Shown here one piece after another: positions 1-30,706 of a stretch of DNA of 34,082 bases. This DNA comes from a virus (Duplodnaviria; Heunggongvirae; Uroviricota; Caudoviricetes). Location: positions 1 through 34,082 of IMG/VR virus record IMGVR_UViG_3300045988_014597. One strand, written 5' to 3'. Positions within the stretch are counted from its first letter, which is position 1. The number at the start of each line of letters is the position of its first letter. A program made the position numbers and the translations under genes. The notes under the pieces are model-generated. The model saw nothing but the letters and a program-made list of their open reading frames with translations, was not told the origin of the DNA and searched no databases.

Positions 1-23
1 CCCTATTATATTGGGGTGTGCAA
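1..23 (-). promoter_or_regulatory. Partial family B promoter (TTGCAC-N17-[TACTAT outside window]) pointing leftward out of the window
   Basis: Reverse complement of 1-23 is TTGCACACCCCAATATAATAGGG, nearly identical to the -35 and spacer of the promoter at 21236-21258. The -10 would lie just before position 1. Confidence 0.45.
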
Positions 24-130
24 GTAGTGTGCTAGAATAAGTTTGCGCCTAGTGTCGCACACGAAAAGCGGGTGGTTCCCGTCTGGCGCATTAACCTTAA
101 CCTGTAACCTCTTAACCAAAGGATTAAAGA

Positions 131-547
131 ATGAAACTTTCTGATTTTTATTTCGAAGAGAAAGCACTGGTGGGCAAGAAGATGCATATTCTCCTGCCAA
201 ATGGCGAAGACTCAGGTGAGTGGCTTAACGTCGTAAGTCCTGACGCCGATGTCGCCGTTAAAGCAGGGCGTGCTTTCATTATCGCGTACCGCCGCGGGTT
301 GGCGCGCTTTGAAGAACTGGAAAAAGCCGCCAAAGAATCCGGCGACTATACTGAATATAATCTGGCCATTAACGAACTAGCGGAAGACCTCAACCGACAA
401 CTCGCGGCAGAAGTCGTAAACGGCTGGAGCTTTGATGAGCCTTTCTCTAAAGAAGCATTTAACGAATTGCTGGACCAGTTCAAGGTATTAGGGACACAGG
501 TGGCCGCGTTCCATAACGCCGAGCGCAAAGCATTACAGGAAAAGTAG
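131..547 (+). CDS. Tail assembly chaperone (lambda gpG-like), 138 aa
   Basis: ORF directly upstream of the tape measure gene; an overlapping downstream frame is reachable by a -1 shift, the classic G/GT arrangement. Product assigned by synteny, not by motif. Confidence 0.55.
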   Translation: MKLSDFYFEEKALVGKKMHILLPNGEDSGEWLNVVSPDADVAVKAGRAFIIAYRRGLARFEELEKAAKESGDYTEYNLAINELAEDLNRQLAAEVVNGWSFDEPFSKEAFNELLDQFKVLGTQVAAFHNAERKALQEK

Positions 548-912
548 ACGCGCTGTACAGGTTCGCCACCTACGAGTTTGTGGATAAGCATAAAATCAGA
601 GAGTTTGATTCTATAGCTGACGGTCACGAACAGGCGCTTATCGCGATGGGTGTAATCGATAAGAAAAAACGTGCAGCGCGACGGGGCGGGCCAGAATGCC
701 CGCCCCTTTTTATATCCACCTTTGAGACGTATTGCGACATTAAGTTTACGCGACACGTGCGCGAGGACGCTGTAGTATTGTTCGCAAGAGAATCCGTTAC
801 GTGGCAAGACCTGAAAGCCTATCTCGATGTTACGCAAAAACAGCTTAGCCTGTTCGAGATAGACATTATCATGGGCTTAGAAGCAATCTTTGAAGGTAGA
901 AATCATGGCTGA
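541..912 (+). CDS. Frameshift extension of the tail assembly chaperone (gpT-like part of a G-T fusion)
   Basis: The -1 frame is open from 517 to the TGA at 910-912 and overlaps the tape measure start. Candidate slippery site GAAAAG at 539-544, immediately before the TAG stop at 545-547. Confidence 0.45.
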   Translation, partial: KVDALYRFATYEFVDKHKIREFDSIADGHEQALIAMGVIDKKKRAARRGGPECPPLFISTFETYCDIKFTRHVREDAVVLFARESVTWQDLKAYLDVTQKQLSLFEIDIIMGLEAIFEGRNHG

Positions 913-3331
913 TACCGCTAGCTTGATAGTACGAGTATCATCGACCGGCGTCGATAAAACCACATCCCAACTGAACGGGCTTACTAAGGCGGCGGGGGCG
1001 GCCGCCGCTGCCGTTGTCAGCCTGGAAACCGCCAAGCAGGTGTTCAGTGCGCTGGTGGCATCCCAGCGAAACTTCGATAAGCTGAACTCTGGCCTCATCA
1101 CGATGACCGGGAGCGCCGAGAATGCCGCTAAGGCTTTCAGCGTCCTGCAACAGTTCGCAAAAGAGACACCGTACGGGCTTAACCAGGCCGTAGAAGGGTT
1201 TACCAAGCTCGTGGCGCTGGGTCTCAACCCCAGCAAAGAGGCGTTAATCTCCTACGGCAACACTGCCGCGGCGATGGGCAAGGACCTTAATCAGATGATT
1301 GAGGCCGTAGCGGACGCCAGTACCTTTGAATTTGAGCGTCTGAAAGAGTTTGGTATCAAGTCTTCCCAACAGGCGGATACAGTTTCGTTCACGTTCCGCG
1401 GCGTAACAACCACGGTTAAAAAGAACTCCGAAGAGATTCAGAAATACCTGCTAAATATCGGTAACACTGATTTCGCCGGGGCGATGGAAACGCGCTCGAA
1501 GACCTTAGATGGTCAGTTATCGAGCCTGGCGGACTCCTTCGATGGCCTTGTTCTTGCCGTAGCGCAATCCGGTTTTGGCGACGCGGTAGGTGCGCAAGCG
1601 GCAACGGCGGAAGATGCTATCACGGCACTCACCGACGCTATCGCGTCTAATGAGATCGCCGCCACGCTCCAGGATTGGGTGACACTGTTCAATGAATCGT
1701 TCAAGTTTATTTCTGATGCCTTGAATGACCTGGCATATGACACTGAGAACAAATCCACAGATATGTCAGACTCGCTGGGAACTATCCCGGACGCTATCCG
1801 AGAGTGGCTGCCTGACATTCAGCAGACATTCCACGAGGTTATTGCGTGGTTCCAGCGCATTGACGACTACGCAGTAGCATTAGGTCAGACCCTTGCCGAT
1901 GTGTTTGACCCGAGCAAAACGGCGGCGCTCACATTTAAAAACCTGACCGCGGAGGCTGACGCAGCATACACTGCCAGTATAAAACGCGCAGAGGCCGAAT
2001 CACAGGCCATTACCAACAGGTCTAAGCAGCGTAAGAAAGAAATTGAGGAACAGCGCAAGCAGTACGACGAGCGCAAGAAGCAAGAAATTGACCTAGCCAG
2101 CCTTGTTAACGGAAAGGGCGGAAAGGGTGGAACTGGTGGGGCTGGAAGCACCAACGACAAAGACGCGAAAGCCGCCGCTAAGAAAGCGGAGCAATTGCGT
2201 AAACAGGCGCAAGATTATCTCGATACTCTGGCCCGCCAGAACAACGACGAGATAAAGGCTATTGACGCGCAAGAACAACAGAAACTTAAGGAGGCCGCAA
2301 AATATCGGAAAGAAGGGGCACTAACCGCCGAAGAATATGAAAAGGCAAAAACAGCGATAGTTCTTCAATACGGGCAAAAACGGCAAGAAGCTCTCGACAA
2401 AGAATTAGCCGAGGAGCAGAAAAAACTGCAACAAGGCGTAGCGGTGCTGGCGTCAATAGACCCTGTCGCTAACCTACAGCTTGAGCGGCAGAAGAGACTT
2501 GCAGTTATAGAGGAGTATGAGGCCCAAGAAAACTCAATACATGAAGTCGCGTTGCAGGCACGGGCGGAACTGGACAAGCAATATAACGATGGGCTGGCTG
2601 CCGCAGCTGAGGAGCGTTTCCGCAACCAGTCCGAGTGGAACAATATGCTTATGGATTCCCTCGACGCGGTGGGTGCTTCCGCGTCCAGCTCCATAGTCGG
2701 ACTTATTAATGGTACTCAGACCGCTAGCGAAGCAATGGCAAACCTCGGCAACGCAATCCTGTCATCGGTCGTTTCAGGGCTAACACAGATGGGGGTGGAG
2801 TACCTGAAAAACATGATTATAGGCCAAACGGCATCCGCGGCGACTATAGCGACAGCATCGGCTACCGGCGCGGCGATTGCTGCAGCGTATGCCCCCGCCG
2901 CGGCGATGGCTTCTCTGGCGTCATTTGGGGCTAACAGTGTTCCCGCTATGTCGGGCATCACAACCACGGTGGCGAGTACCCAAGCGTTGGCCTTAACTGG
3001 ATTTCGCGAACAGGGCGGGCAAATGAACGCGGGCGGCAGCTATCTTGTTGGCGAACGCGGCCCTGAGATTATCAGGATGCCAGGGGCCGGGCGCGCGGTG
3101 AACGCAAGCCAAACACGACAACAGTTAAATGGCAACAGTAGCAGAAATGGCGGTGATAACGTGACAATCGTCAACAACACCACCGGACGCGTTGATTCCG
3201 CCGTAACAGAACGTGATGACGAAGGGCGTTTACGTATTATAATCAGTGAAACAGTAGCGTCGCAGTTACAGGACAACAACTCACCGATTTCTAAAGCCCG
3301 CCGCTCTACTCGCGGTCGGCCGGGGTATTAA
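905..3331 (+). CDS. Tail tape measure protein
   Basis: Protein of about 800 aa, Ala/Gln/Glu/Lys-rich with coiled-coil character and a Gly-rich stretch (GKGGKGGTGGAG). Sits between chaperone and tail-tip genes. ATG at 905 preferred over the TTG at 890 used by the ORF track. Confidence 0.85.
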   Translation: MADTASLIVRVSSTGVDKTTSQLNGLTKAAGAAAAAVVSLETAKQVFSALVASQRNFDKLNSGLITMTGSAENAAKAFSVLQQFAKETPYGLNQAVEGFTKLVALGLNPSKEALISYGNTAAAMGKDLNQMIEAVADASTFEFERLKEFGIKSSQQADTVSFTFRGVTTTVKKNSEEIQKYLLNIGNTDFAGAMETRSKTLDGQLSSLADSFDGLVLAVAQSGFGDAVGAQAATAEDAITALTDAIASNEIAATLQDWVTLFNESFKFISDALNDLAYDTENKSTDMSDSLGTIPDAIREWLPDIQQTFHEVIAWFQRIDDYAVALGQTLADVFDPSKTAALTFKNLTAEADAAYTASIKRAEAESQAITNRSKQRKKEIEEQRKQYDERKKQEIDLASLVNGKGGKGGTGGAGSTNDKDAKAAAKKAEQLRKQAQDYLDTLARQNNDEIKAIDAQEQQKLKEAAKYRKEGALTAEEYEKAKTAIVLQYGQKRQEALDKELAEEQKKLQQGVAVLASIDPVANLQLERQKRLAVIEEYEAQENSIHEVALQARAELDKQYNDGLAAAAEERFRNQSEWNNMLMDSLDAVGASASSSIVGLINGTQTASEAMANLGNAILSSVVSGLTQMGVEYLKNMIIGQTASAATIATASATGAAIAAAYAPAAAMASLASFGANSVPAMSGITTTVASTQALALTGFREQGGQMNAGGSYLVGERGPEIIRMPGAGRAVNASQTRQQLNGNSSRNGGDNVTIVNNTTGRVDSAVTERDDEGRLRIIISETVASQLQDNNSPISKARRSTRGRPGY

Positions 3332-7374: not shown

Positions 7375-9255
7375 ATGTCAAGCGGATGTGGTGACGTTTT
7401 AAGCCTGGCGGATTTACAAACCGCCAAGAAACACCAGATTTTCGAGGCCGAGGTTATCACGGGTAAGTCCGGTGGGGTTGCTGGTGGTGCTGATATTGAT
7501 TACGCGACCAATGCGGTTACGGGTCAGACGCAGAAGACACTCCCGGCGATACTGCGCGATACTGGGTTTTCTCCGGTATCGTGGGATTTTTCCACAGGCG
7601 GAACGTTAACAGTTAATGACCGCGACAAAGTGGTTTATGACCCTGTAAGCAAAACGTGGTATTCATACACCGGTACACTGCCGGTGACCGTTCCAGCTGG
7701 GTTTAACCCCGTGGGCAGTGCTGACTGGAAACCCCAGACGGACCCAGATTTGAGGGAAGAACTAGCGGATACCAGTAGTATTGTTAATGGTGATGCTTTA
7801 GTGGGAGTGCGCCAGCCTTTTGCCGGTGCTGTTTCCCGTACTCAGCATGATAAAAATAAAGAATATGTATCTGTTACTGATTTCATCACGCCGGGTGAGT
7901 CAGACTCTGCGGATAAGACTTACGCGTTCCAAGCGGCTGTCGACTCTCTTACATCTGCGGGTGGTGAAATTCACATTCCAAATGGTGGATTTTGGGTAGT
8001 AGAGGGTATTGTAACTCTTAATAAATCAGTAACTATAAGAGGGTCAGGGTCTACCCCAACTACGTTAATTAAAAAAAGTAACACAAATTCCACGTTTTTT
8101 AATGTGGCGGAGGAGTCATGCTCCATCCGCGACCTACGATTGATAGGTGCTGCGGGTTCTACCGGTGGTTTCGCGATCACAACGGCGACAAACGCAAGTC
8201 GTCTCCATATTGATAACGTGCAGATTCGAGCTACGCACAGTGGTATAAATCTTAAAGCAAATTTATTTTCGTTGTCACATATAGAAATCGTGGACATTAA
8301 CTCACCCGGTGGGGTAGGAATTGAGGTAGACCAATCCGGCGTAGTAGACGGGGTTGGCCTCATCACATCAACTGTTATACAGAACGGCGATGGTGTAGAA
8401 CCCTACGCAGGCATATTTCTAAGGCACGCTATCGGCATCCTTATATCTGATACTCAGTTGATGCAGGCAGGTAAAGCGATGGTAATGCAGCCCGGAGCTA
8501 CTCAGGGTGTCAGCTCTATAAAAATAGTTAATACATATTTTGATACATCAGATGATGGTGGGCTTTTTATTGATAATACCTCCGGCGGGGATATCTCCCG
8601 TATAACAATCGCCGATTCTTGGTTAGCAAGCAGTAAAAACAGTTCCGGGTTAGTTATTCAGGCCGGGTCCAATATCCGTGGCCTCAAAGTATCCTCTTGC
8701 GAATTCTATGACAGCATTACCGGATTAAACGTAGGTGATAATACTGTAGTGCAAAATTTAGACGTAAGTGATTGTGTGTTTTCTGGGCACACAGCCGCGG
8801 ATGTTTCAATAGGCACTAACGTTTCAAATTTCTCGTTCACTAATTGTCGTTCTGGTGCCCTAGGTGGTTTCGCCGCTTCCCCATTTGGGTTATATATAAA
8901 CCCTGGCTGCGGCAACTTTAGCGTAATAGGTAATGAATTCCATGCTATAAACGATGCATCATACCCCTCTAGCGGGGTACTTATCGCCGATAACCGCCAA
9001 TGGGGCTTCGCTCAGGTTACATATGACCCTCCCGTAATCGCTCCAGTAACAAGTATAGAGAGCACAATAGGTGTACCGGGGGCCAGGCCAGGCGATGTAG
9101 TTGATATATCGTTTACCACAGATTTACAGGGGGTTCTTCTCCTTGGTTGGGTATCTGGTAACGATGTTGTGTCGTTCAGGATGTTTAATAGCACAGGTGC
9201 TAATAGGGATTTAGGGGCAGGAATAATTAAGGCAAGAATAAAAAGAATGTCATAA
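7375..9255 (+). CDS. Tailspike / tail fibre with pectate-lyase-like right-handed beta-helix (putative depolymerase), 626 aa
   Basis: N-terminal region of about 130 aa followed by repetitive beta-helix-like segments (IRDLRLIG, NVQIRATHSG, SSCEFYDS, SDCVFSGHT). The 3' two thirds is visibly AT-richer than neighbours. Confidence 0.7.
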   Translation: MSSGCGDVLSLADLQTAKKHQIFEAEVITGKSGGVAGGADIDYATNAVTGQTQKTLPAILRDTGFSPVSWDFSTGGTLTVNDRDKVVYDPVSKTWYSYTGTLPVTVPAGFNPVGSADWKPQTDPDLREELADTSSIVNGDALVGVRQPFAGAVSRTQHDKNKEYVSVTDFITPGESDSADKTYAFQAAVDSLTSAGGEIHIPNGGFWVVEGIVTLNKSVTIRGSGSTPTTLIKKSNTNSTFFNVAEESCSIRDLRLIGAAGSTGGFAITTATNASRLHIDNVQIRATHSGINLKANLFSLSHIEIVDINSPGGVGIEVDQSGVVDGVGLITSTVIQNGDGVEPYAGIFLRHAIGILISDTQLMQAGKAMVMQPGATQGVSSIKIVNTYFDTSDDGGLFIDNTSGGDISRITIADSWLASSKNSSGLVIQAGSNIRGLKVSSCEFYDSITGLNVGDNTVVQNLDVSDCVFSGHTAADVSIGTNVSNFSFTNCRSGALGGFAASPFGLYINPGCGNFSVIGNEFHAINDASYPSSGVLIADNRQWGFAQVTYDPPVIAPVTSIESTIGVPGARPGDVVDISFTTDLQGVLLLGWVSGNDVVSFRMFNSTGANRDLGAGIIKARIKRMS

Positions 9256-9612: not shown

Positions 9613-11033
9613 TTCTTACCTCGTCTCTTCATGTAATTAAGCAATTCTTCCTGTACTGATTTCTTCTCGTCGGTACGCGCGGCAACAACCTCGTCCAGCG
9701 TGTCTTTAGCGACGATGTGATAGAGGAACACCGGGCGCTCGTGGCCTGCCTGTTTCTGGCGTACGGGACCTATACGCTCGACAACCTGCAAATAGTGCTC
9801 AAGGTTCCAGCCTTGCGAGATGAACGCCAGATGATGCCCGCCGTCCTGTAAATTCAAACCATGGCCCGCTGACGCAGGATGTACGCATAGGATTTCGATT
9901 TCTCCACGGTTCCACGCTTCCATCTGCTTATTACCCTTAGCGCCTTTGGCGAATGCCTGGGCCTGCGGGAATCTCTTAAGGATGCGCTCCAGTTCGTGCT
10001 TAAACTGATAAGCCACAAGCAACGGCGCACCCTGTAACTCCTCGACAATGGACTCAAGCGCATCCAGTTTCGTGTCGTGCACTTTCTCCCAGTCTTTCGT
10101 TGCTTCTCCATCAGGCCCCGACACATACACGGCACCAGAAGCAATCTGCAGACACTTCGACGTCTTCGCCGCCGCGTTAGCCGCTTCAACTTCCCCGCTC
10201 TCGAGTTCCGCGAATAGCTTCTCCTCCATATCGATGTACGCCTGACGCGCTTTCTTCGGCAGGTCGATTTCAACCGGTACAATAATCGGCGCTTCACAGC
10301 CGAACCATTCGGCGGCGTCAATCGTGAGACTAATGTCCTTCATCTTCTGATGAATTTCATTATCTGCGCCCGGGCGTGCATGGTATTCACGGGCCATCGC
10401 TGACTTACCTTTCTGTACCGAGTTGAACCAGCGGTCGGTGAATGCTGTGTACGATGAACCAAGTCGCTCGCCTGCGTCGATAAACCAGTTCTGCCCCCAC
10501 AAGTCCTTGAGGCCGTTCGGTGATGGTGTACCTGTCAGGTTAATGAACCGCTTAACCTTACCGAACGCCACTTTACTAAGCGCCTTTGCCCGCTTGCTGC
10601 CGCCTGAACGGCTGCGGAATGATTTCAGCTTCGTGCTTTCATCGGCAACAATAACTGTAAAAGGCCAGTCGTCTTTGCCGTAGTAGTCAATCAGCCACTC
10701 GATAACTTCGTAGTTGGTACAAATCACATTGGCGTCAGACTCCAGCGCCGCGATACGGCGCTTCTCTGAACCTGTCGCATCTACGACATTCAGACACGGG
10801 AATTGCCATTTCTCTTGTTCTGCTGGCCATGTGCCGGACGCAACGCGCAGCGGGGCGAGTATTAACACGCGGTCATCGTCCGTAAGTTGCCCATTGCGAA
10901 ACAGGCGGTTGAGTACCCACATTGTCGACGAGGTCTTGCCGCCGCCCATACCGCACCAGATATTGCAACGTGGGTGCTGTAGTATAAACGACGTCATTAT
11001 TTTCTGGTACTCGCGCCTTTGAAACTTAGACAT
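9609..11033 (-). CDS. SNF2/DEAD-like ATP-dependent helicase, 474 aa
   Basis: Walker A CGMGGGKTS and a DExx box (VIVADEST), plus a C-terminal helicase region. Confidence 0.8.
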   Translation of the reverse strand: MSKFQRREYQKIMTSFILQHPRCNIWCGMGGGKTSSTMWVLNRLFRNGQLTDDDRVLILAPLRVASGTWPAEQEKWQFPCLNVVDATGSEKRRIAALESDANVICTNYEVIEWLIDYYGKDDWPFTVIVADESTKLKSFRSRSGGSKRAKALSKVAFGKVKRFINLTGTPSPNGLKDLWGQNWFIDAGERLGSSYTAFTDRWFNSVQKGKSAMAREYHARPGADNEIHQKMKDISLTIDAAEWFGCEAPIIVPVEIDLPKKARQAYIDMEEKLFAELESGEVEAANAAAKTSKCLQIASGAVYVSGPDGEATKDWEKVHDTKLDALESIVEELQGAPLLVAYQFKHELERILKRFPQAQAFAKGAKGNKQMEAWNRGEIEILCVHPASAGHGLNLQDGGHHLAFISQGWNLEHYLQVVERIGPVRQKQAGHERPVFLYHIVAKDTLDEVVAARTDEKKSVQEELLNYMKRRGKK

Positions 11034-12300: not shown

Positions 12301-12428
12301 TCCAGCACCCACAGATAAATTGCGATGAACATGCCCAATATGGCAACCATCATGCCGTATTGACCCTCGTGACAGTAGATACCGGCGGCGAATCCCGCCA
12401 GTACCGCGATAATCAGTTTACTTGGCAT
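12297..12428 (-). CDS. Small membrane protein, 43 aa, two predicted hydrophobic helices
   Basis: MPSKLIIAVLAGFAAGIYCHEGQYGMMVAILGMFIAIYLWVLE; start overlaps the 3' end of the polymerase gene. Confidence 0.3.
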   Translation of the reverse strand: MPSKLIIAVLAGFAAGIYCHEGQYGMMVAILGMFIAIYLWVLE

Positions 12429-14589
12429 AACGTTTTAACTCCTGACCTTCCGCTACAAGAGGGAAGCCTTCTGCCCACTCAGGTAATTCACACATCAACC
12501 GCTCAAGTTCAGCCACATTGTATTCCGGCGTATCTGGTGTCTCACAGATAATTTCGTCGTGTACGTGAAGCACAATCGGATAGCCGTTAGCTTCTACATT
12601 CAGCAGCGCATTAGCCAGCAAATCACGGCATAGCGCCTGAGTGCAGTTTTCCACCAGTTTACCAGAGTAGGTGTACTGGAAGCCCCACTGACGGGTTAAC
12701 TGGTTCTCCCCCTGGTACTTGATACGCACGTTAGTAGACACCTTTCCGTCTTCGTCTGTCTCTTTCGACACGCTTAACCCGACTCCGGGGTATGACATAA
12801 CACGACCTGACGGCAACGTCATGCGCAACCACCAGCCAGCGACTTTGTTGCCGTTGATGTCTGTCTCCACGTTGCGCGAAAACTTAACGCCGCGCGGCCC
12901 TGCGGTGAACTCTTTACCTGGATTGCGGATAGCTGCCATAGCCGCATCTTCAATATCTCGCCAGAATTGGACTATTGCAGGATTAGCTTCCCGGTACATG
13001 CGTTTTAAAGCGTCACAGGTACGCCACACTTTCTTATCCAGAATATACGACGGTCGGTCATCCTTTTCGCCGGGTCTCGGCGGTCTCTTGGCTTCCTGAA
13101 TGCGTGCCCACTCATATCCGCGTGCGGTAGCGGCCCAGATGTGGTCAGGGAATGACCTGTCTAAAGTGCGGGTCATATCATTCAAATCAAGACCTAAGTT
13201 TTTAGCAAACGTGACGAAAGCACCTACACCCCCCGCGTAGCCGAGGCCCAGAACCATTGCTTTGGCTATTTGTCTTTGGTCCTTTGTTACAGCCTCGTAC
13301 GCAACGTTGAACACAGTTGATGCGAGTTTCTTATACACATCAACCCCGTTTACAAATACTTCTATTAAATCGTCTTCACCAGCCAGCCACGCTAAACCAC
13401 GGCCTTCGACGTTCGAGTAGTCGGCGACGACAAACTTATGCCCCACTTCCGGTATGATGCAGCTTCGCACCGTCGATGCCGTTAGCTTGGCTACATCGAA
13501 ACGGCGATGTGCACGGCCTTTAAGTAACGCTGAAATGCCTTTATCCAGTTCATCATCATGATAGTACCCGCGCGACTGGTTATGCGGCTGGAAGCCTTTA
13601 CCCGCAAACCGTAATGTACGCTTGGCCCCGCCATACTGGATGCAACCGCGGCGTCGGTCGTCAGAAGAACGGCCCAACAACAGTGGTCTATATTTCGTTG
13701 ACGCGGTAGACGCGGCCCCGAGGCGCATTTCGATAATCGTGCGAGCGTCGTCCGGTAAATCATCATCCGCCAGCAGGTCGTTAAGCGTAGACTTCTGCGC
13801 ATTGTGGATGCGGTGCGCTGGCGCAAGTTCACGCAGAATCGGAAGGAAGTCTTTACCAGTCAGCGAGCCGCCGTATTTGCGTTGGGCTTCTTCCTGTAAC
13901 TGTGCCTTGTGCTTCTCCACGGCTTCAATCGCGGCTTCCGCCAGTGCGACGTCAACCTTAAACCCCCTGTCATTGATTAACTGATCCAGTTCCAGTACAC
14001 GGTCCTCGAACTCGGAGTTACCCCACCGCGGCAGCTTATGGAACACTTCACGCATCGCAGTGATGTCACTCACGGCGTACTTGATGAACAGCGCCCATTC
14101 TTCCGGGTGTGTGTCCGCGGTGTAGCGGCGGATTTTGTAGTTCTTCGGTGTCGGTTTAGAGAAACGCTGAATCAGCGCCTTGCCGCGTTTATCTTTTGCG
14201 TTGTCCGCGGATACGCCAAGCACTTCACACAGCGCATCGAGTGACCCCGGCAGCGCGTGACGAAACGCCCAAATCATCGTATCAATGGTGTTGCTTACCG
14301 GAATATCAAAGCCCCAGCAGCGCTTCATGATTAGCCTGTCGAACATTGAGCCGTTATGCCACACCATCTTAATGCGGCTGTTCGGCTTCACCAGGCGGCG
14401 TAGAGCGCGGTGCAAATCTCCTGGCATGTCGCTGCTGTCGGTGCAATCCCATACCCGCACAGGTTCGTCGTCGAAAGCATATGTACAGATAAGCACTTCG
14501 GTAGTCGGGTGTTCGGCATAAGCGTAGGAGCCGACTTTCTTTAAATCGGCCTCGGAGAATGTTTCAAAGTCTAAGAACAGGTAACTCAT
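12418..14589 (-). CDS. DNA polymerase, family A (Pol I-like) with 3'-5' exonuclease domain, 723 aa
   Basis: Exo motifs FLDFETFS and YAVSDI; polymerase motif A VVADYSNVEGR, motif B RQIAKAMVLGLGYAGG, motif C VLHVHDEI. Confidence 0.93.
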   Translation of the reverse strand: MSYLFLDFETFSEADLKKVGSYAYAEHPTTEVLICTYAFDDEPVRVWDCTDSSDMPGDLHRALRRLVKPNSRIKMVWHNGSMFDRLIMKRCWGFDIPVSNTIDTMIWAFRHALPGSLDALCEVLGVSADNAKDKRGKALIQRFSKPTPKNYKIRRYTADTHPEEWALFIKYAVSDITAMREVFHKLPRWGNSEFEDRVLELDQLINDRGFKVDVALAEAAIEAVEKHKAQLQEEAQRKYGGSLTGKDFLPILRELAPAHRIHNAQKSTLNDLLADDDLPDDARTIIEMRLGAASTASTKYRPLLLGRSSDDRRRGCIQYGGAKRTLRFAGKGFQPHNQSRGYYHDDELDKGISALLKGRAHRRFDVAKLTASTVRSCIIPEVGHKFVVADYSNVEGRGLAWLAGEDDLIEVFVNGVDVYKKLASTVFNVAYEAVTKDQRQIAKAMVLGLGYAGGVGAFVTFAKNLGLDLNDMTRTLDRSFPDHIWAATARGYEWARIQEAKRPPRPGEKDDRPSYILDKKVWRTCDALKRMYREANPAIVQFWRDIEDAAMAAIRNPGKEFTAGPRGVKFSRNVETDINGNKVAGWWLRMTLPSGRVMSYPGVGLSVSKETDEDGKVSTNVRIKYQGENQLTRQWGFQYTYSGKLVENCTQALCRDLLANALLNVEANGYPIVLHVHDEIICETPDTPEYNVAELERLMCELPEWAEGFPLVAEGQELKRYAK

Positions 14590-14605
14590 TATTTTCGACC
14601 CCTAG

Positions 14606-14630
14606 TAAAAAGGCCCAATGAAGGGCCTTA
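14606..14630 (-). terminator. Intrinsic terminator between the SSB-like gene and the polymerase gene
   Basis: AGGCCC-AATGAA-GGGCCT hairpin with an A-run on the + strand, giving a U-tract on the reverse-strand transcript. Confidence 0.5.
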
Positions 14631-14648
14631 GTTAAATTGATTCAGATA

Positions 14649-15275
14649 TTAACGGCGACGACGTTCGCGGCGCGGTGCTTCATCTTCTTCGTCGTCTTCC
14701 AGGTCATCGACGCTTGCAGCGACTTTAGAACCGCCGAATGCTTTACCTTCGCCAACATATTTAATCGCCAGCAGGTTAACGCCGAGGACTTTGTATTTCT
14801 GGCTGAACCAGATTTCGACGCTTACGTTAGCGACGCAGCCGCTGTAAACCTGTTCACCTTCAATCTGTTCACCGTCCACATTGAAGTCCTGCTCTACCTG
14901 AGTCTCGCCTTTTTTAGAGGTTACAATCAGCGGCTGTTTCTGTGCCTTCGCTTTGAAGTAGAAGCCTTCCGGGAAGTCTTCAAACGGATTGTCGCGCTCG
15001 GCAATGTCTTTAATCGCGCATTTATCCATATGCTTGCCTTCGCCGTAGTTGGACTTCATCCATTTCTCGGCAGCGGCTGCACCTAACGCCTCTTCAACTA
15101 CAGCATAAACCGTGTCGTAGAGTGCGTCGATTTGAGCATGGTCAGGCGGCAGGATAATAGTCGCGCTGTATTGACCTTTAGTGATTGAGCCATCGTCGTT
15201 TTCACGGTCTTTTTCGCGTTCAAATACGTTAACCCAAGCAGTGTTTACTTTACGCAGATTTAATTTCAGTCCCAC
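14649..15275 (-). CDS. Putative ssDNA-binding protein (SSB-like, DUF2815-like) with a charged C-terminal tail, 208 aa
   Basis: Acidic C-terminus (DDLEDDEEDEA) followed by an Arg run; neighbours a DUF2800-type nuclease and Pol A, a common phage replication trio. Function inferred. Confidence 0.45.
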   Translation of the reverse strand: MGLKLNLRKVNTAWVNVFEREKDRENDDGSITKGQYSATIILPPDHAQIDALYDTVYAVVEEALGAAAAEKWMKSNYGEGKHMDKCAIKDIAERDNPFEDFPEGFYFKAKAQKQPLIVTSKKGETQVEQDFNVDGEQIEGEQVYSGCVANVSVEIWFSQKYKVLGVNLLAIKYVGEGKAFGGSKVAASVDDLEDDEEDEAPRRERRRR

Positions 15276-15338
15276 AGTTCAGCCCTCATTAAGTTTAGAT
15301 TTTAAGTTTACTCCGGGAACTGCCCGGCCAGTGATTTA

Positions 15339-15368
15339 ACTATAATAGCTTACTATTCAGGTTGTCAA
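15339..15368 (-). promoter_or_regulatory. Family A sigma70-like promoter (TTGACA-N18-TATAGT) with embedded palindrome GAATAG-N4-CTATT
   Basis: Reverse strand reads TTGACAACCTGAATAGTAAGCTATTATAGT; palindrome at 15344-15357. A CCGGG-N5-CCCGG hairpin at 15313-15327 lies in the 5' leader. Confidence 0.6.
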
Positions 15369-15372
15369 CACT

Positions 15373-16629
15373 TTATTCCAAATCTTCTTCACTAACCTGA
15401 TTCCACTCAGGCCGTTTGTCGTCCGCCGTTGCGACGCACGGCGCACCGGGCTTACGGGTAATGAAGTCTTTAAGTTCTTCTTCCGGTATGACTTTAACCG
15501 CTTCGGTTGGCGTCATGAGGACTTCTTTAGTCAGCTTGTTGCCGTAGAGTTCTGCCACTTTCTCCGCGTCTTTCCACGCACGATTACCGGGACGACCTTC
15601 AACGAGTTTGTACCCTGGCACTTTCTTGCCGGAGTGCAACGCGGTGGCCATAGCTTTTTCAACCTTGTCTATGTGCTGGCGCAACAACGGCAACTTCTCA
15701 TACTCGGCTACGAGTTGCTCTGGTGTCAGTTCCAGCTCAAAGTCGTCCTCCAGTTCTTCCGCCAGTACAGAATTAACCGTCTTTGTACGCGCGGCGCACT
15801 GTTCCGAGAACCGACACCACTGACAACCATCGACCGACGGCTTGAAGTCCGACGCTTTCAGGTTCTTCTTACCCCGAAAATACGCATCAAGAGCTAACAG
15901 CGCGCGTTTCTGTGCAAACTTAGCGAACAGTTCCAGACCTTCAACCGAAATGTCCCACTCCGACGCACCGCCAGCATACGGCTGAAAGATGACCAGACGA
16001 ACAACCGTGATGTTATAACGTCTCTTGAGTCGGCGATAAACACCGAGAGCGTAAAGCATAAGCTGCTTGTTTTCTTTCGCTTCGACACGGTGTCGCCCAG
16101 TTTTCAGGTCGCCGATAATTAGCATGTGCTCGTCGGTGTTAGCCAGTTCCTGAACGGCAACAAGGTCAGCGGTTCCGAACGTCTCAACGCCTTCATATCC
16201 CGGATGCAATACCTCGGTAAGATTGACGCGCATTTCCAGCTTGGCGTAAGTCGCTACGTCGATAATCGCTTTGCAGTAGTCGGTGTACTTGCGCACCTGC
16301 TCAATCATGCCCGTCGTAATCAGTACCGCACCTTTCATCGGGCTGATTAGGGCCTTAATCTGGCCTTTACCCTCATCCAGCACGTAAGCACCGACTTCAC
16401 GCTCTAACGGCAACGCGGTGCCTTTGATGTACTGGTTTAAATGGACCTCGGCAATAGTGTGGCATGCGGTTCCTGTAACGGCAGATTTACCAGACGCGTT
16501 AGGAATATCTTTTTCACACGCCAGTGACGCAGCGCATGACAGCCACTTTTTAGCGCCTGACGGTGACAGTAAGGCGTGTACATCGTTATTTCCGCCGCGA
16601 TCCTTTAAAATCATACCCTGCTCTCCCAC
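15373..16629 (-). CDS. PD-(D/E)xK nuclease of the Cas4/RecB-like family (DUF2800-like), 418 aa
   Basis: GDLKTG and QLMLYALG motifs, plus a four-cysteine arrangement (one N-terminal Cys and a C-terminal CQWCRFSEQC cluster) typical of Fe-S Cas4/AddB-type nucleases. Confidence 0.7.
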   Translation of the reverse strand: MGEQGMILKDRGGNNDVHALLSPSGAKKWLSCAASLACEKDIPNASGKSAVTGTACHTIAEVHLNQYIKGTALPLEREVGAYVLDEGKGQIKALISPMKGAVLITTGMIEQVRKYTDYCKAIIDVATYAKLEMRVNLTEVLHPGYEGVETFGTADLVAVQELANTDEHMLIIGDLKTGRHRVEAKENKQLMLYALGVYRRLKRRYNITVVRLVIFQPYAGGASEWDISVEGLELFAKFAQKRALLALDAYFRGKKNLKASDFKPSVDGCQWCRFSEQCAARTKTVNSVLAEELEDDFELELTPEQLVAEYEKLPLLRQHIDKVEKAMATALHSGKKVPGYKLVEGRPGNRAWKDAEKVAELYGNKLTKEVLMTPTEAVKVIPEEELKDFITRKPGAPCVATADDKRPEWNQVSEEDLE

Positions 16630-17687: not shown

Positions 17688-17903
17688 ATGCAACCATCTG
17701 AACTAGGCATCCGTGTAGAACAACGCCGCAAAGAACTCGGCATCTCCCAGCGCCGTCTGGCCGTCCTGGCTGGCGTTTCCCAGGGCGCAATTAACCAGCT
17801 GGCACTTGGGGTAACTCAGGACGTCCGCCCGGCGACGCTGTTCAAACTGGCGGAAGTGCTGCAAGTAGACGCCAAGTGGCTGGCGTTAGGTGAAGGGGCT
17901 TAA
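17688..17903 (+). CDS. XRE-family helix-turn-helix transcriptional regulator (Cro/CI-like), 71 aa
   Basis: LGISQRRLAVLAGVSQGAINQLALG helix-turn-helix; AAGGAG RBS; sole + strand gene inside the reverse-strand replication module. Confidence 0.85.
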   Translation: MQPSELGIRVEQRRKELGISQRRLAVLAGVSQGAINQLALGVTQDVRPATLFKLAEVLQVDAKWLALGEGA

Positions 17904-30684: not shown

Positions 30685-30706
30685 AAAGGCCCCATTATGG
30701 GGCTTT
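30685..30706. terminator. Bidirectional intrinsic terminator between the portal gene and the convergent methyltransferase gene
   Basis: AAAGGCCCC-ATTAT-GGGGCTTT; the methyltransferase stop codon lies in the loop. Confidence 0.65.

What the first reader, a model, noticed from the sequence alone, without database searches (positions are those of the whole stretch)
517..912. Candidate programmed -1 frameshift producing a tail chaperone G-T fusion
The chaperone ORF ends at TAG 545-547. The -1 frame is open from 517 to 912 and has no plausible own start with a ribosome-binding site. The sequence GAAAAG-TAG (539-547) places a lysine codon that can slip from AAG to AAA immediately before a stop codon, a known stimulatory context. 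The fusion would be about 260 aa and end inside the tape measure start region, as in lambda G/GT. The heptamer is not the canonical X-XXY-YYZ form, so this is a prediction.
Basis: partly seen in the sequence, partly recalled or inferred. Interest (0 to 1): 0.45.

Follow-up and report, generated by a model that had tools for sequence, protein, structure and literature searches.

The report
Tail chaperone G-T frameshift, already annotated

Summary
The window is a Kagunavirus (K1G-like E. coli siphophage, ~96% identical here). Every coordinate in the finding is correct. The chaperone ORF is 131-547 and ends in TAG. The -1 frame is open 517-912. GAAAAG-TAG lies at 539-547, and the 260-aa fusion ends 8 nt inside the tape measure gene.

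A G-T type -1 frameshift is strongly supported by comparison:
- In 61 related loci (14 clusters, down to 35% T identity), the -1 frame protein is conserved from the first codon after the slip site.
- No start codon is conserved there.
- A_AAG or A_AAA is followed at once by TAG/TAA in 13 of 14 clusters, while the codon before it varies (GAA, GGA, GCA, GTA, AAA, TCA).
- No conserved downstream RNA structure was found.

The same junction (..LQEK|VDALY..) is deposited for phage K1G (ADA82267.1), and PHROG 15027 models the fused protein. No experiment was found for this phage group, and annotation is inconsistent: one paper says the same sequence lacks a canonical slippery site.

Side observation: a 9-bp all-GC hairpin plus U-tract (683-716) sits inside the T frame. 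It looks like an intrinsic terminator, is conserved in position in Kagunavirus-like clades and is absent from Jerseyvirus.

The parts
119..123 (+). Shine-Dalgarno-like AAGGA, 7 nt upstream of the G start codon
   Evidence: Read directly from the sequence. CPT annotators mark a ribosome-binding site at the equivalent place in Shelanagig, Snoke and Shashou.
131..547 (+). G: tail assembly chaperone ORF, 138 aa, zero frame, ending in TAG
   Evidence: ORF list. Matches PF08748 Phage_TAC_4 and phrog_15027 positions 1-138. The exact sequence is present in public collections.
517..547 (+). Overlap in which both the zero frame and the -1 frame are open; any shift must happen here
   Evidence: TAA at 514-516 closes the -1 frame upstream. 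In close relatives with CGT instead of CGC the overlap shrinks to 15 nt, equivalent to window 530-544.
538..544 (+). Slip site G_GAA_AAG, with core tetramer A_AAG at 541-544; tRNA-Lys re-pairs from AAG to AAA
   Evidence: Read directly from the sequence. A_AAR is invariant in all 14 clusters while the preceding codon varies. RP180 carries the canonical G_GGA_AAG at this position (L038).
545..547 (+). Zero-frame stop TAG immediately 3' of the slip codon; candidate stimulator ('shifty stop')
   Evidence: A stop (TAG or TAA, never TGA) follows directly in 13 of 14 clusters. The overlapping Val codon is GTA in 12 of 13 clusters, against 27% GTA among Val codons elsewhere.
544..912 (+). T segment: 122 codons in the -1 frame plus TGA at 910-912, translated only as the C-terminal part of G-T. 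Fusion CDS = join(131..544,544..912), 260 aa
   Evidence: Matches PF23812 Phage_TAC_18 at E 1e-18 and phrog_15027 positions 139-259. Third-codon-position variability is about twice that of positions 1 and 2 from codon 1 onward. tblastn matches start at residue 1 in 492 of 494 phage records.
683..716 (+). Terminator-like element inside the T frame: hairpin GGGGCGGGC-CAGAAT-GCCCGCCCC (683-706) followed by TTTTTATATC
   Evidence: Top-ranked terminator-like site in the whole window. Free energy -22.5 kcal/mol, z = -3.1, matched by 0 of 200 shuffles. Found at the same position in 32 of 56 distinct relatives, with compensatory changes. Its function is untested.
905..3331 (+). Tape measure protein gene (ATG 905; Shine-Dalgarno-like GAAGG at 892-896), overlapping the end of T by 8 nt
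   Evidence: ORF list. TMP_3 match below Pfam's cut-off. The K1G annotation places the start at the equivalent ATG.

Best explanation
**What it is.** Genes G and T of this Kagunavirus form a lambda-type tail assembly chaperone pair, expressed by programmed -1 ribosomal frameshifting.

**How it works.** Most ribosomes translate 131-547 and terminate at TAG, giving the 138-aa G protein. A minority slip back one base at G_GAA_AAG_UAG (538-547). The single E. coli tRNA-Lys un-pairs from AAG (542-544) and re-pairs with AAA (541-543). The ribosome then reads GUA GAC GCG... and continues to TGA at 910-912. This makes a 260-aa G-T protein with the junction ...LQEK-VDALY...

**Signals.** The only conserved signals are the A_AAR tetramer and the stop codon directly after it. 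The most likely route is therefore slippage of peptidyl-tRNA-Lys in the P site while the A site waits on UAG. Partial tandem re-pairing of tRNA-Glu (GAA to GGA, with a middle G-U) may help in this phage.

**Role (by analogy with lambda).** G and the G part of G-T are inferred to coat the tape measure protein. The T part is inferred to recruit the tail tube protein. Neither is expected in the virion.

**Shown versus inferred.** Shown: the reading frames, their homology, and conservation of the site. Inferred: that slippage really occurs, how efficient it is, and which of the two routes is used.
For: **Sequence.** The frames and the motif are as described.

**Family membership.**
- G matches PF08748 and T matches PF23812.
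- Both halves map contiguously onto phrog_15027, as profile positions 1-138 and 139-259.

**Existing annotation.**
- The K1G joined CDS equals the fusion I predicted, exactly.
- fFiEco02 and Shelanagig are annotated as 'frameshift product'.

**Comparison of relatives.**
- In 61 loci (14 clusters at 80% T identity, down to 35% identity to the window), A_AAG or A_AAA is invariant.
- TAG or TAA follows directly in 13 of 14 clusters.
- Serratia phage Eta adds a further variant, UCA_AAG_UAG.
- Raoultella phage RP180, 96% identical, has the canonical lambda heptamer G_GGA_AAG.
- The overlap of the two frames is only 12-15 nt in several relatives.

**Coding signal in the T frame.**
- T codons 1-34 show entropy 0.66 / 0.61 / 1.33 at codon positions 1 / 2 / 3.
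- 6 of 17 diverse relatives have no ATG, GTG or TTG at all in those codons.

**No other stimulator.** No conserved downstream structure was found.

**Literature.**
- Z_ZZN is the minimal -1 site; A_AAG is the shiftiest tetramer in E. coli.
- E. coli has one tRNA-Lys for both AAA and AAG.
- G_GGA_AAG is highly shift-prone, and lambda G:GT is about 30:1 (PMC5009743; PMC4066793).
- Burkholderia phage KL1 is predicted to shift at GGGAAAC directly before its TGA (PMC3483164).
Against: - No experimental evidence (protein, reporter or ribosome profiling) was found for any Guernseyvirinae phage.
- G_GAA_AAG is not a canonical X_XXY_YYZ heptamer.
- In E. coli the A_AAG tetramer alone, without a stimulator, was barely above background: about 0.15% against 0.11% (PMC4066793). 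Efficiency here therefore depends on an untested stimulatory effect of the stop codon or of the GAA context.
- One relative (L060) has the stop one codon further downstream, so strict adjacency is not essential.
- Many GenBank records annotate T as a separate gene.
- The Shashou paper states that there is no canonical slippery sequence.
Confidence: 0.88

Rival explanations
1. T is a separate gene that starts translation on its own. Candidate starts are CTG 553 (using the AGGA of 537-540 as a ribosome-binding site, as some annotators assume), GTG 580 or ATG 646. No frameshift would be involved.
For: - Many records annotate a separate ORF starting 6 nt after the G stop. Examples are Bas74, PBSE191, wksl3, SP-101, Eta, Snoke and Shashou.
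- In Jerseyvirus that codon is TTG, and AGGA lies 12 nt upstream.
- The Shashou authors saw no canonical slippery sequence.
Against: - In this window the equivalent codon is CTG.
- GTG 580 has no Shine-Dalgarno match, and no start position is conserved.
- 6 of 17 diverse relatives have no ATG, GTG or TTG in the first 34 T codons.
- The residues before every candidate start (V-x-A-L...) are conserved and show third-position wobble.
- tblastn matches begin at T residue 1 in 492 of 494 records.
- The Met at 646 is replaced by Gln or Ile in several clades.
Confidence: 0.05
2. The long product comes from transcriptional slippage. RNA polymerase would add or drop an A in the A-run, so that a fraction of mRNAs carry G and T in one frame.
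For: Two distant clades have longer A-runs at the site: A6G in L062/L065 and A7 in L081-L085. Transcriptional slippage is a known alternative route to the same kind of fusion (review PMC5009743).
Against: - The run in this window and in most clades is only 3-4 A (GAAAAG, GCAAAG, GTAAAG, TCAAAG). From general knowledge, that is far shorter than the runs that support polymerase slippage.
- The conserved feature is A_AAR in a fixed frame plus an adjacent stop. That points to the ribosome, not the polymerase.
Confidence: 0.03
3. The shift is a classical tandem (P-site plus A-site) slip on the heptamer G_GAA_AAG, exactly as on lambda G_GGA_AAG. The adjacent stop codon would play no mechanistic role and would be there only to trim G. 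This is a rival for the route, not for the event.
For: - tRNA-Glu can re-pair with GGA through G-C, G-U and A-U pairs (inference from the sequence).
- G_GAA_AAG is the commonest variant, found in 6 of 14 clusters.
- RP180 has the fully canonical G_GGA_AAG.
- G_GGA_AAG is highly shift-prone in E. coli (PMC5009743).
- L060 keeps A_AAG but has its stop one codon later.
Against: - Several clades use C_GCA, G_GCA, G_GTA or G_TCA before AAG. There the P-site tRNA cannot re-pair in the -1 frame.
- The stop codon is kept adjacent through a synonymous choice of the overlapping Val codon: GTA in 12 of 13 clusters against 27% elsewhere.
Confidence: 0.3

Closest known systems
Escherichia phage K1G ORF22A/ORF22B (ADA82267.1 / YP_009168804.1, joined CDS 14890..15671). 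The same annotation exists in fKuEco01, fFiEco02 and Salmonella phage Shelanagig.
   Same: - ~96% nucleotide identity over this region.
- Identical CAG GAA AAG TAG site.
- Identical 260-aa product length and identical junction.
- Same position directly upstream of the tape measure gene.
   Different: Only a few amino-acid substitutions in G, for example H19 here against P19 in K1G. The exact fusion sequence of this window is not itself in the public collection.
Phage lambda G / G-T (-1 frameshift at G_GGA_AAG; Levin, Hendrix & Casjens 1993; Xu, Hendrix & Duda 2004)
   Same: - Two overlapping ORFs directly upstream of the tape measure gene.
- A -1 shift near the 3' end of G, at a Lys AAG codon.
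- The long form is a minor product needed with G for tail assembly (PMC5009743).
- No conserved downstream structure found here.
   Different: - The heptamer differs by one base (G_GAA_AAG against G_GGA_AAG), so it is not of X_XXY_YYZ form.
- The zero-frame stop is directly adjacent to the slip codon.
- The tail tube gene is not directly upstream. In K1G a four-gene cassette on the opposite strand lies between them.
- G and T fall in different Pfam families (TAC_4, TAC_18). Homology to lambda G or T was not tested.
Burkholderia phage KL1 gp18/gp19 (predicted -1 shift at GGGAAAC immediately upstream of the TGA stop)
   Same: A tail chaperone pair whose slip site abuts the zero-frame stop codon. 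One KL1 tail protein is similar to K1G tail proteins (PMC3483164).
   Different: KL1 has a canonical heptamer ending in AAC and a TGA stop. It also has an extra gene between the chaperones and the tape measure gene.
Tetramer/hexamer -1 sites of the NNA_AAG type: B. subtilis cdd (A_CGA_AAG) and IS1222 (G_CGA_AAG)
   Same: The slip rests on tRNA-Lys moving from AAG to AAA. The preceding codon does not re-pair canonically, and efficiency depends on the two 5' bases (PMC5009743).
   Different: Those cases are not described as relying on an adjacent stop codon. They occur in other gene contexts.

Membership tests
Tailed-phage tail assembly chaperone G/G-T programmed -1 frameshift (Xu, Hendrix & Duda 2004 class) | Two overlapping ORFs, the second in the -1 frame, directly upstream of the tape measure gene | tested here: met
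   G is 131-547. The -1 frame is open 517-912. The tape measure ATG is at 905.
Tailed-phage tail assembly chaperone G/G-T programmed -1 frameshift (Xu, Hendrix & Duda 2004 class) | A slippery sequence inside the overlap that lets tRNA re-pair in the -1 frame | tested here: met
   A_AAG lies at 541-544 within G_GAA_AAG. This is not a canonical X_XXY_YYZ heptamer, but it is a recognised Z_ZZN site (PMC4066793). It is conserved in all 14 clusters.
Tailed-phage tail assembly chaperone G/G-T programmed -1 frameshift (Xu, Hendrix & Duda 2004 class) | The downstream ORF lacks its own conserved start and is conserved as protein right up to the slip site | tested here: met
   No conserved start codon. 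Coding periodicity is present from T codon 1. tblastn matches start at residue 1.
Tailed-phage tail assembly chaperone G/G-T programmed -1 frameshift (Xu, Hendrix & Duda 2004 class) | The pair lies between the major tail (tube) gene and the tape measure gene (typical synteny) | tested here: not met
   The window starts 130 nt before G. In K1G, four genes on the opposite strand separate the tail tube gene from G: an ATP-binding protein, a polynucleotide kinase, an exonuclease and a superinfection immunity protein. Deviations from this synteny are known in accepted members (PMC3483164), so this feature is typical rather than strictly defining.
Tailed-phage tail assembly chaperone G/G-T programmed -1 frameshift (Xu, Hendrix & Duda 2004 class) | Both the short and the long protein are made from one start codon, at a low fixed ratio, and both are needed for tail assembly | not testable with these tools
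   No experimental data were found for Guernseyvirinae.
Pfam Phage_TAC_4 (PF08748) / Phage_TAC_18 (PF23812); PHROG 15027 | Score above the curated family threshold | tested here: met
   G scores 24.9 bits against a cut-off of 21.1. T scores 67.7 bits against a cut-off of 27. For phrog_15027, E is 5e-69 for G and 2e-69 for T, and the two map onto contiguous profile positions.
Stop-codon-stimulated P-site slippage ('shifty stop', Weiss et al. 1987) | Frameshift efficiency depends on a stop codon in the A site next to the slip codon | not testable with these tools
   Only indirect support. The stop is adjacent in 13 of 14 clusters, with a synonymous-codon bias (GTA in 12 of 13 against 27% elsewhere). 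One exception exists, L060.

The most novel reading that the evidence does not exclude
The strong terminator-like hairpin plus U-tract inside the T frame (683-716) may be a working intrinsic terminator or attenuator. Nearly all ribosomes leave the mRNA at the G stop codon, 136 nt upstream of the hairpin. The hairpin would therefore be free to form on most transcripts and could cut transcription before the tape measure gene. That would give many more G-only messages than tape measure messages. In the boldest version, a leading ribosome that has frameshifted into T would melt the hairpin. Transcription of the distal tail genes would then be coupled to the frameshift itself.
Probability: 0.15. 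Interest if true: 0.6.

Novelty: already known. Interest (0 to 1): 0.2.

Why it matters
For this window it matters mainly for correct annotation. The 544-912 ORF should be annotated as the C-terminal part of a joined CDS, join(131..544,544..912). It should not be annotated as a free-standing hypothetical protein with a CTG or GTG start.

There is a modest wider point. About 500 Guernseyvirinae-like phage genomes carry this gene pair and are annotated inconsistently. One published genome note states that the same sequence has no canonical slippery site. The comparison made here shows a simple rule for the whole group: A_AAR followed at once by UAG or UAA, with a free preceding codon. That makes the group a natural test set for stop-codon-assisted -1 slippage on a bare tetramer.

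Tried and rejected
- **Word-indexed protein search with the fusion.** It returned only 4 short hits and no fusion proteins. The exact-sequence look-up answered the question instead.
- **PDB sequence search with the fusion.** It gave only a spurious 0.003 hit, so there is no solved relative.
- **Rfam scan of the whole window.** No match.
- **Downstream stimulatory structure.** Folds of 545-600, 545-640 and 548-580 were no better than shuffles (z +0.5, -1.2, +1.1). RNAalifold on 17 diverse relatives predicted no pairs. A stem-loop or pseudoknot stimulator is therefore rejected. This is despite a GenBank note in Snoke and Shashou that cites PMID 25663216 for a predicted secondary structure.
- **Upstream Shine-Dalgarno-like stimulator.** None is visible in 515-537.
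- **Alternative slip site at CGC_AAA_G (524-530).** Rejected, because close relatives carry a -1 frame stop there (CGT AAA), which leaves only 530-544.
- **Literature.** Searches for Kagunavirus or Jersey phages plus frameshift found nothing. Xu et al. 2004 and Anany et al. 2015 are not held.
- **Hairpin 683-706 as a frameshift stimulator.** Rejected on distance: it starts 139 nt 3' of the last base of the slip site.

Full report
**1. What the window is**

Bases 100-1000 match 99 phage records. The best matches are Raoultella phage RP180 and Escherichia phages ST20 and K1G, at about 96% identity. All are Kagunavirus, subfamily Guernseyvirinae. Over 25 kb, coverage by the best relatives is about 72% at about 90% identity.

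**2. The observation**

- ORF 131-547 encodes 138 aa and ends CAG GAA AAG TAG, with TAG at 545-547.
- The -1 frame has TAA at 514-516 and is then open to TGA at 910-912.
- GAAAAG occupies 539-544.
- If tRNA-Lys moves from AAG (542-544) to AAA (541-543), the next codons are GTA GAC GCG CTG TAC...
- The product is then 138 + 122 = 260 aa. It ends 8 nt inside the tape measure gene (ATG 905).
- G matches Pfam Phage_TAC_4. The -1 frame segment matches Phage_TAC_18 at E 1e-18. Both frames therefore encode real tail chaperone domains.

The short motif is not remarkable in itself. AAAGTAR occurs 10 times in the window against 9.4 expected.

**3. It is already annotated**

- The RefSeq and GenBank records of K1G carry ORF22A (14890..15306) and ORF22B, a two-piece joined CDS 14890..15671.
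- I built the K1G fusion with the junction ...LQEK|VDALY.... An exact-sequence look-up returned ADA82267.1, YP_009168804.1 and two Finnish phage proteins.
- Salmonella phage Shelanagig carries the same annotation.
- PHROG 15027 is a 259-position profile. G aligns to positions 1-138 and T to positions 139-259.

**4. Comparative test of the frameshift**

A scan of viral contigs with a T-domain alignment gave 64 loci with 35-100% T identity. Of these, 61 were usable. They fall into 14 clusters at 80% T identity.

*Slip site and stop.*
- The zero frame ends in A_AAG or A_AAA in every cluster.
- In 13 of 14 clusters the next codon is TAG or TAA.
- The exception, L060, reads GCA AAG TTA TAG.
- The codon before the Lys codon varies: GAA (six clusters, including this window and Jerseyvirus), GCA, GTA and AAA.
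- GGA occurs in RP180, giving the canonical lambda heptamer G_GGA_AAG.
- TCA occurs in Serratia phage Eta.

*Codon choice.* The first T-frame codon, which overlaps the stop, is GTA in 12 of 13 Val-first clusters. GTA makes up only 27% of Val codons elsewhere in these G and T genes. The stop is therefore maintained by synonymous codon choice. The clusters are related by descent, so this is not a formal probability.

*Size of the overlap.* In several relatives the -1 frame is open for only 12-15 nt upstream of the junction. These include close relatives of the window in which CGC is CGT. That confines the shift to the last four or five codons of G.

*Coding signal.*
- In 17 diverse relatives, T codons 1-34 have column entropies of 0.66, 0.61 and 1.33 at codon positions 1, 2 and 3. 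This is the signature of translated sequence.
- The same pattern holds for the first 12 codons, upstream of the window's GTG 580.
- No start codon position is conserved.
- Six of the 17 have no ATG, GTG or TTG at all in those 34 codons.

*Other checks.* The Met at 646 is Gln or Ile in some clades. A tblastn search with T found 494 phage records, and 492 of them match over at least 80% of T; in all but one of the 60 records listed the match begins at residue 1.

**5. Stimulators**

- No downstream structure stands out in the window (z between +1.1 and -1.2).
- RNAalifold predicts no conserved pair in 126 nt across 17 relatives.
- No Shine-Dalgarno-like element lies 10-14 nt upstream.

*What the literature says.*
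- Z_ZZN is the minimal -1 site, and A_AAG is the shiftiest tetramer in E. coli. It reached 5.6% with a strong pseudoknot, but the tetramers as a group averaged only about 0.15% without one, against 0.11% for their no-motif controls (PMC4066793).
- E. coli has a single tRNA-Lys for AAA and AAG.
- The two bases 5' of A_AAG modulate efficiency.
- G_GGA_AAG is highly shift-prone.
- Lambda needs G:GT of about 30:1 (PMC5009743).

*Conclusion on the route.* A bare tetramer is weak, and the only other conserved element is the adjacent stop. I therefore favour slippage of peptidyl-tRNA-Lys in the P site while UAG awaits release factor 1. In this phage, tRNA-Glu re-pairing GAA to GGA through a central G-U may add to it. 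This split between routes is inference. A reporter assay with stop-codon and RF1 variants would decide it.

**6. Rivals**

- *Independent initiation of T.* Many records annotate it this way. It would need a CTG start here, and it is contradicted by the conservation upstream of every candidate start.
- *Transcriptional slippage.* It is unlikely with a run of only four A.

**7. State of knowledge**

I found no experimental demonstration for any Guernseyvirinae phage.

Annotation practice is split. The genome note for phage Shashou says the ORF between the chaperone and the tape measure gene has 'no canonical slippery sequence' (PMC6776780). Yet Shashou has exactly the same CAG GAA AAG TAG as this window.

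Burkholderia phage KL1 offers a published parallel, with a predicted slip site placed directly before the stop (PMC3483164).

**8. Side observation inside the finding's coordinates**

*The element.* At 683-706 lies GGGGCGGGC-CAGAAT-GCCCGCCCC, followed by TTTTTATATC.
- It is the top-ranked terminator-like site in the whole window.
- Its free energy is -22.5 kcal/mol, with z = -3.1. That is more stable than the intergenic terminator-like hairpins at 17892 and 20215.
- It lies in the T frame and encodes RRGGPECPPLFI.

*Conservation.*
- A hairpin plus T-run occurs at the same T position (nt ~132-140) in 32 of 56 distinct relatives.
- These cover the K1G and K1H clades and several single-contig clades.
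- It includes one clade (L079, L080) that lacks the GPECP motif.
- By contrast, the G region has such a site in 2 of 56 loci, and the first 400 nt of the tape measure gene in 4 of 56.
- All Jerseyvirus loci lack it.

*Covariation.*
- The outer stem pairs change together between clades, for example GGC/GCC against AAG/CTT against ACG/CGT. These changes involve amino-acid replacements.
- In the formal count, 74% of cells are paired, against 66% in shuffles (0 of 500 shuffles reach the observed value).
- The slid-register control is not clean, because the arms are homopolymer-rich.

*Interpretation.* Most ribosomes leave the mRNA at 547, so this hairpin would usually be free of ribosomes. A role as a terminator or attenuator that sets G message above tape measure message is plausible. 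It is untested.

**9. Verdict**

The feature is a known, already annotated member of the G/G-T frameshift class. Interest is low. Two footnotes are modest: the family-wide A_AAR-stop rule, and the hairpin inside T.

Noticed in passing
window 683-716 (+): A perfect 9-bp all-GC hairpin (GGGGCGGGC/GCCCGCCCC, 6-nt loop) followed by TTTTTATATC lies inside the T reading frame. Its free energy is -22.5 kcal/mol, the strongest terminator-like site in the window. The element is kept at the same position, with compensatory stem changes, in Kagunavirus-like clades and is absent from Jerseyvirus.
   Followed up: partly
window 11-38 (+): A possible extended -10 promoter for the chaperone and tape measure operon: TTGGGG, a 16-nt spacer, then TGcTAGAAT. 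It lies in the 130-nt gap that follows a divergently transcribed superinfection-immunity gene in relatives. The consensus scan missed it because the -35 hexamer matches only 3 of 6.
   Followed up: no
upstream of window 1; K1G record 12327-14722 (L089 6328-8723): In K1G a four-gene cassette on the opposite strand separates the tail tube gene from G/G-T. It encodes an ATP-binding protein, a polynucleotide kinase, a DNA repair exonuclease and a superinfection immunity protein. The usual tube-G-T-tape measure synteny is therefore broken.
   Followed up: partly
K1G record 9965-10716 (L089 3966-4717), outside the window: K1G carries a second joined, frameshift-type CDS, ORF14A/14B, annotated as 'tail completion or Neck1 protein'. 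The equivalent region is not in this window.
   Followed up: no
window 7375-9255 (+): The 626-aa tailspike candidate has only weak Pfam matches (Tail_spike_N and DUF4957). It is much shorter than the ~984-aa K1G protein at this position (ORF27, 'tail protein'). Together with ~72% coverage by K1-type relatives, this suggests a different receptor specificity.
   Followed up: partly
window 905-3331 (+): The tape measure protein is 808 aa here against 757 aa in K1G. It contains a Gly/Lys-rich stretch, GKGGKGGTGGAGS.
   Followed up: no
window 30686-30706 (+) / 30703-30689 (-), and 33077-33057 (-), 9279-9260 (-): Typical intergenic AAGGCCCC...GGGGCCTT terminator-like hairpins. One of them looks bidirectional, sitting between convergent ORFs.
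   Followed up: no
L038 (Raoultella phage RP180) junction; equivalent to window 538-544: RP180, 96% identical to the window, reads CAG GGA AAG TAG. This is the canonical lambda heptamer G_GGA_AAG and differs by a single A-to-G change that turns Glu into Gly in G.
   Followed up: yes
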